Shown here: piece after piece, positions 22,469 to 22,897 of the stretch
How the letters are laid out: each line of letters opens with the position of its first letter
How positions within the stretch are numbered: the first letter of the stretch is position 1
NCBI RefSeq assembly: GCF_009914755.1
Contig: NC_060929.1
Direction: 5' to 3' (one strand)
Source: the human T2T-CHM13v2.0 reference genome, Homo sapiens
Length of the DNA: 64,000 nt
Position numbers and translations under genes: made by a program
The notes under the pieces: generated by a model
What the model saw: only the letters and a program-made list of their open reading frames with translations
Databases searched by the model: none
Told to the model about the DNA's origin: nothing

Positions 22469-22672
22469 TATATTAGTCAGGGTTCCCTAGAGGGACAGAT
22501 GTGTGTGTCTAATAGGATAGATGTGTGTGTGTGTCTGTGTGTGTGTATTTTAAGGGGAGTTTATTAAATATTAACTTACACAATCACAAGGTTCTCCAAT
22601 AGGCTGTCTGCAAGCTTGAGGAGAAAGGAGAGCCAGTCTGTCTCAAAACTGAAGAACTCGGAGTCTAATGTT
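22469..22672 (-). mobile_element. MLT2A (HERV-L) LTR, 3'-terminal ~200 bp only
   Basis: 'tatattagtcagggttccctagagggacaga...aataggatag...aaggggagtttatta...acaatcacaagg...aaaactgaagaactcggagtc' is the reverse complement of the MLT2A 3' end; minus-strand AATAAA at 22560-22565. Confidence 0.88.
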
Positions 22673-22897
22673 TCAAGACGGGTTGGGTGGGTACCCCACA
22701 CTGCCGCTGACGCCTTGCGCTCACTCCGCCATTCGCGTGCGTGGCTGAGAGACCCCCGGCCCCACTGCGTGACCCACCCATGTCGCACTGGGGACAGTTC
22801 GCCCCCCGCCTGTGAGCACGTTGGCCCTCACCCTCTTTGTGCCACCGTGGCTTTTGTGTTAGCCCCTAACTTGCTCAAGTGTTAGACTTCTTGGTCC
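22669..22897 (-). pseudogene. 28S rRNA fragment (3' end of D2 expansion segment plus adjacent core), circularly permuted
   Basis: Reverse complements match 28S landmarks ACCCACCCGACCCGTCTTGAAACA and CTGTCCCCAGTGCG (22669-22810), and GGACCAAGGAGTCTAACAC...CGTGGCGCAATGAAGGTGAAGGCC (22811-22897). Confidence 0.9.

What the first reader, a model, noticed from the sequence alone, without database searches (positions are those of the whole stretch)
22669..22897. Circularly permuted 28S rRNA fragment
Native antisense 28S reads ...ccttcaccttcattgcgcc...gttagactccttggtcc-G-tgtttcaagacgggtcgggtgggt...ggggacagtccgcccc (block A, then block B). Here B comes first (22669-22810) and A follows (22811-22897). 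A ends at 'ttggtcc', within about 1 nt of where B starts, and the new B/A junction uses 'gcc' microhomology. Inference: either a ~230-nt circular rRNA/rDNA template was copied once round, or RT jumped downstream on the same folded rRNA and stopped where RNase H had already removed the template. MLT2A 'gagtctaa' (22661-22668) is also nearly complementary to 'ttagactt' (22882-22889), which may have guided the switch.
Basis: partly seen in the sequence, partly recalled or inferred. Interest (0 to 1): 0.8.

Follow-up and report, generated by a model that had tools for sequence, protein, structure and literature searches.

The report
Permuted 28S patch in chimeric retroelement
A 229-base copy of large-subunit ribosomal RNA, with its two halves in swapped order, bridges pieces of two different ancient retrovirus-like elements that entered the genome as one unit, a fossil of a reverse transcriptase hopping between templates.

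Summary
Window 22669-22810 is antisense 28S (rDNA locus L002 1659->1496). Window 22803-22897 is antisense L002 1755->1661. The two blocks lie on the same strand in swapped order, with one rRNA base between their outer ends.

The context changes the reading. The fragment is the bridge inside a 1530-bp composite (22469-23998). On its left is the inverted last ~200 nt (part of R, plus U5) of an ERVL LTR. On its right is the 3' 1.1 kb of a 2.3-kb MaLR-type element. Both outer ends are natural LTR termini. The composite is flanked by a perfect 5-bp duplication, ATAAC, of an otherwise continuous old L1.

The plus strand therefore reads like an ERVL minus-strand strong-stop cDNA that switched onto 28S rRNA at a homeologous site. 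It then jumped about 250 nt downstream and copied back to its own starting point. There it met a partly made MaLR minus-strand cDNA, and the product was integrated through two U5 ends.

A circular rRNA template is not excluded. The junction sequence is unique in this genome. This is a new variant of retroviral "patch" recombination, of moderate interest.

The parts
22464..22468 (.). Left copy of the 5-bp target-site duplication ATAAC, in old L1 ORF2-like sequence
   Evidence: Read. All 6 other L1 copies shown carry this pentamer (ATAAC or ATGAC) only once, followed directly by ATTGG/ACTGG/ATCGT.
22469..22668 (-). Last ~200 nt (part of R, plus U5) of an ERVL (MLT2-type) LTR, inverted. Its natural U5 terminus abuts the duplication.
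   Evidence: 41 family matches at 77-91% identity. The natural terminus TGTATTAGTC was seen in other copies. RT, integrase and dUTPase lie on the opposite strand in proviral copies L049 and L050. AATAAA sits on the minus strand at 22560-22565. The rest of the LTR is absent from window 18000-32000.
22669..22673 (.). TGTTT shared by the LTR cDNA and the 28S cDNA: the first switch point
   Evidence: 5 of 11 LTR copies read ATGTTT here, and the rDNA antisense reads G-TGTTTCAAG. Similarity extends 5' of it: 11 of 5000 shuffles for L017 and L020.
22669..22810 (-). 28S block B: antisense of rDNA L002 1659->1498 (28S about 1326->1165), the end of expansion segment D2/ES7L up to the GAAACA hairpin
   Evidence: 71% identity, E 5e-23. 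11 CpG-type transitions and 23 gap columns.
22808..22810 (.). GCC shared by the end of block B and the start of block A: the inner junction
   Evidence: Overlap of the two HSPs and hand alignment. Not significant on its own.
22811..22897 (-). 28S block A: antisense of rDNA L002 1747->1661 (28S about 1414->1328)
   Evidence: 77% identity, E 2e-17. 10 CpG-type transitions and no gaps.
22898..23647 (+). 3' ~750 nt of the internal region of a 2.3-kb MaLR-type element (THE1/MST-like, a recalled name), cut off at its 5' side
   Evidence: 40 family matches at 85-87% identity. 11 of 11 copies continue upstream of this point with ...CAC|A(G/A)AA(G/A)T. Alignments run 22897-23998.
23648..23998 (+). Complete 3' LTR of the MaLR-type element, ending at its natural terminus ...ACTAATACA
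   Evidence: LTR-only second hits and termini of other copies.
23999..24003 (.). Right copy of the target-site duplication ATAAC, after which the L1 continues

Best explanation
The permuted 28S piece is a patch copied from ribosomal RNA by a retroviral-type reverse transcriptase while a chimeric cDNA was made from two co-resident retroelements. It has no present function.

Proposed path:
(1) A tRNA-primed ERVL minus-strand strong-stop cDNA copied U5 and about 100 nt or more of R.
(2) Its 3' end (...CTTGGAGTCCGATGTTT in copies that keep the CpG) left the ERVL RNA and paired with the similar 28S stretch AAACA-CGGAC-CAAG. Part of that stretch lies in the loop of a small conserved hairpin.
(3) The RT copied 28S 5'-ward through about 160 nt of expansion segment (block B).
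(4) It jumped about 250 nt downstream on the rRNA at a GCC and copied back (block A). It stopped within 1-2 nt of where it had first landed. Three causes would each stop it there: the template was already in hybrid with the strand's own 5' part, or had been removed by RNase H, or the RT paused at Am1326/m1A1322.
(5) The stalled 3' end paired through 1-2 nt with the 3' end of a partly extended MaLR minus-strand cDNA (U5-R-U3 plus 750 nt of internal sequence), and each strand was completed on the other.
(6) The duplex, with a U5 terminus at each end, was inserted by an ERVL-class integrase into an L1, making the 5-bp duplication.

Shown: the permutation, all boundaries, strand polarities, LTR termini, the duplication and the family identities. 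Inferred: steps 1-6 as a process, co-packaging in one particle, and the cause of the stop.
For: - Two swapped same-strand HSPs with a 1-nt gap.
- The composite 22469-23998 is bounded by natural LTR termini. It is flanked by ATAAC on both sides, while 6 of 6 other L1 copies have that pentamer once.
- A 5-bp duplication is the norm for both families: 6 of 7 two-LTR MaLR-type copies and 2 of 3 testable ERVL solo LTRs.
- The left LTR family is ERVL and is inverted here. RVT_1 (best E 3e-12), dUTPase (E 1e-7, above the cut-off) and rve (E 9e-6, below the cut-off) lie on the strand opposite to the window orientation in L049/L050, with dUTPase nearest the LTR. A PBS-like TGGTACCAGGAGTGGG follows the other LTR end in L023.
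- The piece holds AATAAA (minus strand, 22560-22565). It stops about 90 nt downstream of TATAAA, seen in 6 of 11 copies. It is therefore confined to R-U5, the only part a strong-stop cDNA can contain.
- ERVL antisense and 28S antisense are contiguous on one strand, as expected of one cDNA.
- The switch shares TGTTT plus flanking similarity (11/5000 shuffles for L017 and L020). The acceptor AAAC lies in a hairpin loop of the Rfam consensus structure.
- The right part is exactly what a transferred, partly extended minus strand would be: a full LTR plus 750 nt of internal sequence.
- An HIV-1 integrase/LEDGF complex binds two U5 duplexes in vitro (PMC3623958, passages read).
Against: - The B/A junction offers only GCC, which 9.6% of random junction pairs in this region reach. 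The wider similarity there is not significant (4287, 4364 and 1924 of 5000 shuffles). So a jump is not shown to be better than a ligated circle.
- The rRNA/MaLR junction has only 1-2 shared bases.
- For three other LTR copies the flanking similarity is weaker (47, 103 and 204 of 5000).
- The passages I read in PMC4997597 name 5S rRNA among packaged host RNAs, but not 28S. Packaging of 28S is therefore assumed.
- If the TATA box sets the start site, the switch came about 60 nt before the RNA 5' end, so it was a premature transfer and not a run-off.
- m1A1322 lies inside the presumed primer-acceptor pairing and would weaken it if the rRNA was mature.
- I found no report of integration through two U5 ends in vivo (one search returned one in-vitro paper).
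- This is a single locus. The junction pattern is unique in this genome.
- No other species could be examined, so single-step arrival rests on the duplication alone.
Confidence: 0.6

Rival explanations
1. The setting is the same chimeric cDNA, but the rRNA template was a covalently closed ~250-nt circle (28S about 1165-1417) copied exactly once round. The RT could not pass its own start, or the Am1326/m1A1322 cluster.
For: The permutation is exactly one unit long with a 1-nt gap. The break lies at a modified cluster: Am1326 in PMC5597630, table read, and m1A1322 in a figure legend of bioRxiv 10.1101/2023.11.23.568509. My mapping to L002 1659 and 1655 is by the unique fit of four bases. The inner junction shows no significant homeology, as expected of ligation. 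Pseudogenes with reversed-order junctions are attributed to circRNAs (PMC4897178, whole text read).
Against: No such rRNA circle is known to me, and none was looked for in RNA data here. PMC4897178 itself notes that open-ended, highly structured RNAs can give the same pattern. The predicted fold of the 276-nt stretch does not robustly bring the ends together (z -1.55). A linear jump explains the same facts without an extra molecule.
Confidence: 0.2
2. DNA-level joining. Two incomplete retroelement cDNAs and a double-stranded rRNA-derived fragment (or an opened rDNA microcircle) were ligated by end joining before integration. Alternatively, two separate donor ends were integrated in concert and the free ends were later joined with a filler.
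For: Short microhomologies of 5, 3 and 1-2 nt at the three joints fit microhomology-mediated end joining as well as copy choice. The ~250-bp GC-rich unit has the size recalled for microDNA. An opened circle would give abutting ends.
Against: It needs three double-stranded pieces and three ligations. It does not predict that the rRNA lies in cDNA polarity continuous with the ERVL minus strand (a 1-in-2 chance). It does not predict the significant similarity 5' of the first joint. It does not predict that the ERVL piece is confined to R-U5.
Confidence: 0.12
3. Nested, independent insertions of an ERVL LTR and a MaLR element, followed by a deletion repaired with an rRNA-derived filler. The flanking ATAAC repeat is then a coincidence.
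For: Filler DNA at repaired breaks is a known phenomenon (general knowledge). Both elements are truncated exactly at the rRNA piece.
Against: The L1 is continuous on both sides apart from the duplicated pentamer. Both outer ends are exact LTR termini. A 5-nt match at fixed positions has a chance of about 1 in 1000. The missing LTR half is nowhere in window 18000-32000.
Confidence: 0.04
4. L1-mediated event: target-primed reverse transcription with template switching, as in chimeric retrogenes.
For: L1 RT switches templates, and rRNA-derived retrocopies exist (SINE28, PMC4994717, passages read).
Against: There is no poly(A) or A-rich tail at either end. The duplication is 5 bp with no TTTT/AA-type site. 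The ends are LTR termini.
Confidence: 0.02

Closest known systems
Patch repair: tertiary-template insertion during non-homologous retroviral recombination (reviewed in PMC4997597, citing Zhang and Temin 1993 and Duggal et al. 2007, which I could not read; not held)
   Same: A stretch of an unrelated host RNA sits exactly at the crossover between two non-homologous retroelement sequences. There are short microhomologies at the joints, and the product is integrated with LTR ends.
   Different: This one is a germline fossil, not a vector experiment. The two partners are joined tail to tail, with minus-strand polarity on opposite strands, so both outer ends are U5. The patch itself is circularly permuted. 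The patch comes from 28S rRNA.
circRNA-derived pseudogenes (Dong et al. 2016, PMC4897178)
   Same: A non-colinear, reversed-order junction inside a retro-copied RNA, with no poly(A). That paper also notes enrichment of LTR sequences beside the mouse cases.
   Different: The source here is rRNA, not a back-spliced exon circle. No parent circle is known. The insert is embedded in an LTR-element chimera and does not stand alone.
L1-made chimeric retrogenes such as U6/L1 (recalled from Buzdin et al. 2002-2003, not read)
   Same: An RT switched from one RNA to an abundant structured ncRNA in mid-synthesis.
   Different: Those have a poly(A) tail, long duplications and both parts in the same sense. 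None of these is seen here.
Recombinant ERVs such as HARLEQUIN (PMC5753468, passage read)
   Same: A mosaic of different ERV families.
   Different: HARLEQUIN is a head-to-tail mosaic that went on to multiply. This is a single-copy, inverted, dead-on-arrival chimera with a host rRNA bridge.
SINE28 and other LSU-rRNA fragments in the human genome (PMC4994717)
   Same: 28S-derived DNA outside the rDNA arrays.
   Different: SINE28 comes from the 3' end of 28S and has a tail and long duplications. This piece comes from 28S about 1165-1417, is permuted and has no tail. That paper's list of 109 fragments (Table S1) could not be read, so I cannot say whether it includes this locus.

Membership tests
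Tertiary-template patch in non-homologous retroviral recombination | The insert lies exactly at a crossover between two different retroelement sequences | tested here: met
   The ERVL LTR copies continue differently after 22668/22673 (11 of 11). The MaLR-type copies continue upstream of 22898 (11 of 11).
Tertiary-template patch in non-homologous retroviral recombination | Microhomology at the joints | tested here: met
   TGTTT with significant flanking similarity, GCC (not significant), and C or CA.
Tertiary-template patch in non-homologous retroviral recombination | The host piece has cDNA polarity continuous with a viral minus strand | tested here: met
   28S is antisense on +. ERVL R-U5 is antisense on +.
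Tertiary-template patch in non-homologous retroviral recombination | The product was integrated by integrase: LTR termini plus the family-typical target duplication | tested here: met
   Termini. ATAAC duplication. 5-bp duplications in 6 of 7 and 2 of 3 relatives.
Tertiary-template patch in non-homologous retroviral recombination | The host RNA and both retroelement RNAs were in one particle | not testable with these tools
   Inferred only. The review passages read name 5S rRNA, not 28S.
circRNA-derived pseudogene | Junction of two parent segments in reversed order | tested here: met
circRNA-derived pseudogene | A parent circular RNA with that junction exists | not testable with these tools
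   No RNA data were available. No paper on such an rRNA circle turned up, and no search was aimed at it.
L1-mediated chimeric retrogene or processed pseudogene | 3' poly(A) or A-rich tail | tested here: not met
   No tail at 22897/22898 or at either end of the composite.
L1-mediated chimeric retrogene or processed pseudogene | Duplication of about 7-20 bp at an L1 endonuclease-type site | tested here: not met
   5-bp ATAAC.
SINE28 | [quoted passage not shown] | tested here: not met
   The source is L002 1498-1750, about 28S 1165-1417. There is no tail.
DNA-level rDNA pseudogene fragment | Collinear with the rDNA unit | tested here: not met
   Permuted. For comparison, the chr15 rDNA-like locus is collinear over 2458 + 581 nt.
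ERVL (the left LTR family) | Provirus with pol that includes dUTPase (PMC5753468) | tested here: met
   RVT_1, rve (below the cut-off) and dUTPase (above the cut-off) in L049 and L050.
MaLR (the right element) | Short LTR element without pol, with a 5-bp duplication | tested here: met
   2251-2304 bp between LTR ends. 6 of 7 copies have 5-bp duplications. Absence of pol is inferred from size alone. The names THE1/MST are recalled, not tested against a repeat library.

The most novel reading that the evidence does not exclude
This locus is a direct molecular fossil of one ERVL particle that held an ERVL RNA, a MaLR RNA and 28S rRNA together. Two nascent minus-strand cDNAs were fused tail to tail across an rRNA patch and were integrated through two U5 ends. 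If so, it would be physical evidence that MaLR elements were reverse-transcribed and integrated by ERVL machinery. It would also be a natural case of U5/U5 integration, and a record of how a retroviral RT behaves on a modified, structured rRNA.
Probability: 0.4. Interest if true: 0.7.

Novelty: new variant of a known kind. Interest (0 to 1): 0.55.

Why it matters
MaLR elements make up a large share of mammalian LTR elements. They have no polymerase of their own, and their link to ERVL rests on sequence kinship. A single insertion in which an ERVL strong-stop cDNA and a MaLR minus strand are welded together would put both in the same reverse-transcription complex.

It also shows that permuted, circle-like retrocopies can arise inside LTR-element replication without an RNA circle. 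That bears on how circRNA-derived pseudogenes are called.

Finally, it gives a searchable signature for finding more such fossils: an inverted R-U5 piece, then a host ncRNA in cDNA polarity, then a second LTR element, flanked by a 4-6-bp duplication. The locus itself is non-coding, lies in a gene desert and has no sign of function.

Tried and rejected
- Rfam on the window gave no LSU hit (20000-26000 at E<=1; 22600-22960 at E<=10). The rDNA unit from the same genome was used instead.
- Plus-strand ORFs and read-through frames of two proviral copies gave 0 Pfam families (14 ORFs; 6 frames). This exposed my wrong assumption about LTR orientation. The minus strand then gave RT, integrase and dUTPase.
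- I first read the left piece as the U3 start of the LTR, which implied a plus-strand model. I rejected this.
- Folding the 276-nt rRNA stretch gave z -1.55, and the ends pair only in the MFE structure, not in the centroid. This gives no support for proximity of the jump sites.
- Homeology at the B/A junction is not significant.
- Recurrence: the 23-nt ERVL/28S junction is unique at 0 mismatches. The 5 hits at 3 mismatches look like ordinary LTR copies, and the reversed control pattern gave the same counts.
- The chr15 hit is a collinear rDNA pseudogene and is irrelevant.
- Literature: 1 unrelated paper for strong-stop + template switch + ribosomal RNA + retrotransposon. 0 papers for 28S rRNA + template switching + endogenous retrovirus + chimeric. 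0 papers for SNORD18 + 28S + A1313.
- Not available: Duggal et al. 2007 is not held. Table S1 of PMC4994717 is not readable.

Full report
**1. The observation**

The window has no usable Rfam LSU match here. I therefore took the rDNA unit from the same assembly. A search of the own genome with window 22669-22897 scored 40 of 221 candidates: the locus itself, 38 rDNA units on contig 13 (72% identity over query 1-137, E 2e-16) and one locus on contig 15. Eleven fetched units are identical to each other. Rfam places LSU_rRNA_eukarya on the + strand of L002 from base 336.

Sensitive BLASTN of window 22600-22960 against L002 gives two HSPs on the same (minus) strand:
- window 22669-22810 = L002 1659->1496 (71%, E 5e-23)
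- window 22803-22897 = L002 1755->1661 (77%, E 2e-17)

Nothing else scored better than E 0.023. So the downstream rRNA block follows the upstream block on the antisense strand, and their outer ends miss only L002 1660. By hand, only GCC (22808-22810) is shared at the inner junction. That gives B = 1659->1501..1498 and A = 1750..1747->1661, a unit of about 253 nt of present-day rDNA.

**2. Age**

Against modern rDNA, block B has 11 CpG-type transitions, 2 other transitions, 11 transversions and 23 gap columns. Block A has 10, 4, 7 and 0. About 15% of non-CpG positions differ. The insert is tens of millions of years old, and part of the difference may be later change in the expansion segment itself.

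**3. The flanks**

Left of the rRNA, 22469-22668 belongs to an abundant LTR family: 41 matches at 77-91% identity, with 40 of 1779 candidates scored. Other copies start at the same natural terminus, TGTATTAGTC. After the point matching 22668 they run on with ATGTT and then unrelated LTR sequence (11 of 11). The rest of that LTR is absent from window 18000-32000.

Right of the rRNA, 22898-23998 belongs to another family: 40 of 5392 candidates scored, at 85-87% identity. In 11 of 11 copies the element continues upstream of the point matching 22898, reading ...CAC|A(G/A)AA(G/A)T. The window copy then runs to the natural end of a complete LTR...ACTAATACA, at 23998. Seven copies with two LTRs measure 2251-2304 bp, too short for a polymerase, and 6 of 7 have perfect 5-bp target duplications. 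This is a MaLR-type element. The names THE1/MST are recalled, not tested.

**4. One insertion**

The sequence outside the composite is an old L1. Six other L1 copies read ...CATAACATTGG... or close variants, with the pentamer present once. In the window ATAAC stands at 22464-22468, directly before the left LTR terminus. It stands again at 23999-24003, directly after the right LTR terminus, and the L1 then continues. The 1530-bp composite is therefore a single integrase-type insertion with a 5-bp duplication. That is the size seen in both families: 6 of 7, and 2 of 3 ERVL solo LTRs, with L014 not matching.

**5. Orientation of the left piece**

Three copies of the left LTR family continue into shared internal sequence. 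Plus-strand ORFs (14) and read-through frames (6) gave no Pfam family.

The minus strand gave:
- RVT_1 in three ORFs (best E 3e-12)
- integrase core (E 9e-6, below the curated cut-off)
- dUTPase (E 1e-7, above the cut-off), which lies nearest the LTR
- DUF5535, and a weak ORC4_C hit that I take as spurious

A PBS-like TGGTACCAGGAGTGGG follows the opposite LTR end in L023. The family is thus ERVL; the Repbase review ties dUTPase to the ERVL lineage and MLT2 LTRs to HERVL (PMC5753468). Its true orientation is the reverse of the window + strand.

The window piece is the last ~200 nt of the LTR. AATAAA lies on the minus strand at 22560-22565. TATAAA lies about 90 nt further upstream in 6 of 11 copies. 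The piece is therefore part of R plus U5, ending at the U5 terminus that abuts the duplication.

**6. What the strand says**

Read 5'->3', the + strand is the complement of ERVL U5 and R, then the complement of 28S (B, then A), then MaLR in sense as far as its U5 end. The first two are what an ERVL minus-strand strong-stop cDNA would look like if it left its template inside R and went on along rRNA. The third, read on the other strand, is what a MaLR minus-strand cDNA looks like after a normal first transfer and 750 nt of further synthesis. The two nascent cDNAs meet 3' end to 3' end at 22897/22898, sharing C or CA. Completed on each other, they give a duplex with a U5 terminus at each end. 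An integrase multimer can bind such a substrate in vitro (HIV-1, PMC3623958).

**7. The first switch**

LTR copies that keep the CpG read AACTTGGAGTCCGATGTTT (L017, L020). The rRNA cDNA reads CCTTGGTCCGTGTTT. Besides the shared TGTTT, an alignment of the 16 nt to its 5' side, anchored at the junction, scores at a level reached by 11 of 5000 shuffles for L017 and L020. For L015, L023 and L019 the figures are 47, 103 and 204 of 5000. In the Rfam consensus structure the acceptor lies in a small hairpin, CCGU / CUUGAAAC / ACGG, with AAAC in the loop.

But the family reads GGAGTCCGA or GGAGTCTGA there in 8 of 11 copies, so it was weaker at the time of insertion.

**8. Why the ends abut**

The table of PMC5597630 gives Gm1316, Am1326 and Cm1340. 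A figure legend of bioRxiv 10.1101/2023.11.23.568509 gives m1A1322. Only one register fits G, A, A, C on the L002 sequence: Am1326 = L002 1659 and m1A1322 = L002 1655. This mapping is mine.

Block B therefore starts at, or just 5' of, these modified bases, which were covered by the incoming primer end. Block A stops at 28S 1328, or at 1327 if the A at 22898 is a decayed CpG G. The A at 22898 is equally what the MaLR copies read there. Three non-exclusive causes each predict a stop here: collision with the strand's own hybrid, an RNase H-made template end, or the classical pause one base before a 2'-O-methyl site. I cannot separate them.

**9. Jump or circle**

The inner junction has only GCC, and 9.6% of random junction pairs in L002 1401-1900 share 3 nt or more. 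Flanking similarity is not above shuffles (4287, 4364 and 1924 of 5000). The predicted fold does not robustly pair the ends (z -1.55). So the data do not tell a template jump on linear rRNA from one turn round a ligated circle. I favour the jump. It needs no unknown molecule, and the paper on circRNA-derived pseudogenes itself allows that structured open-ended RNAs can give reversed junctions (PMC4897178, whole text).

**10. Comparison and novelty**

The nearest described process is patch repair. [quoted passage not shown] The passages I read name 5S rRNA, not 28S.

L1-type origins fail on the tail and on the duplication. SINE28 fails on source region and tail (PMC4994717). A DNA-level rDNA fragment would be collinear, as the chr15 locus is.

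The junction is unique in this genome. My searches found no account of an ERV/rRNA chimera of this kind or of this locus. The one list that might hold it could not be read.

**11. Verdict**

The finding is real and is not an artefact. It is best read as a fossil of aberrant retroviral-type reverse transcription, not as free-standing evidence for an rRNA circle. Confidence in that overall reading is about 0.6. The circle variant stands at about 0.2. The locus has no evident function.

Noticed in passing
L023 about 1470-1500; MaLR-type copies L027, L029, L030, L032, L034-L036 (just after their 5' LTR ends): The ERVL copy has TGGTACCAGGAGTGGG five bases after its LTR end. The MaLR-type copies have TGGTACCAGTAGAGTGGG-like sequence six bases after theirs. 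The two primer-binding regions look alike, which would fit shared replication machinery. The tRNA was not identified.
   Followed up: partly
window 22494-22548: A (TG)n-rich microsatellite lies inside the U5 part of the ERVL LTR piece. Other copies have (TA)n or (TG)n runs of varying length at the same place, so LTR lengths vary between 437 and 473 bp.
   Followed up: no
window 24440-24745: An Alu (Metazoa_SRP hit of 64.5 bits, below the gathering score, plus Alu-derived mir-1268 and mir-3135 hits) is inserted in the same old L1 downstream of the composite.
   Followed up: no
L051 = G000:C15:14793500-14797700: A collinear rDNA-derived pseudogene in the pericentromeric region of contig 15: 2458 nt at 79.5% and 581 nt at 89.2% to the rDNA unit. 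It served as a contrast to the permuted piece.
   Followed up: partly
L049 6289-7895: About 1.6 kb is open in all six frames inside an ERVL provirus on contig 1. It is an AT-rich (TATATA-type) simple repeat, not masked sequence; the locus has 0 N.
   Followed up: partly
window 22669-22682 against ordinary ERVL LTR copies (L053-L057): The LTR's own continuation after the switch (for example TGTTTGAGGACAGG) differs from the 28S cDNA (TGTTTCAAGACGGG) at only a few positions. The LTR R region and this 28S stretch therefore resemble each other on both sides of the switch. I did not test whether that is chance.
   Followed up: no
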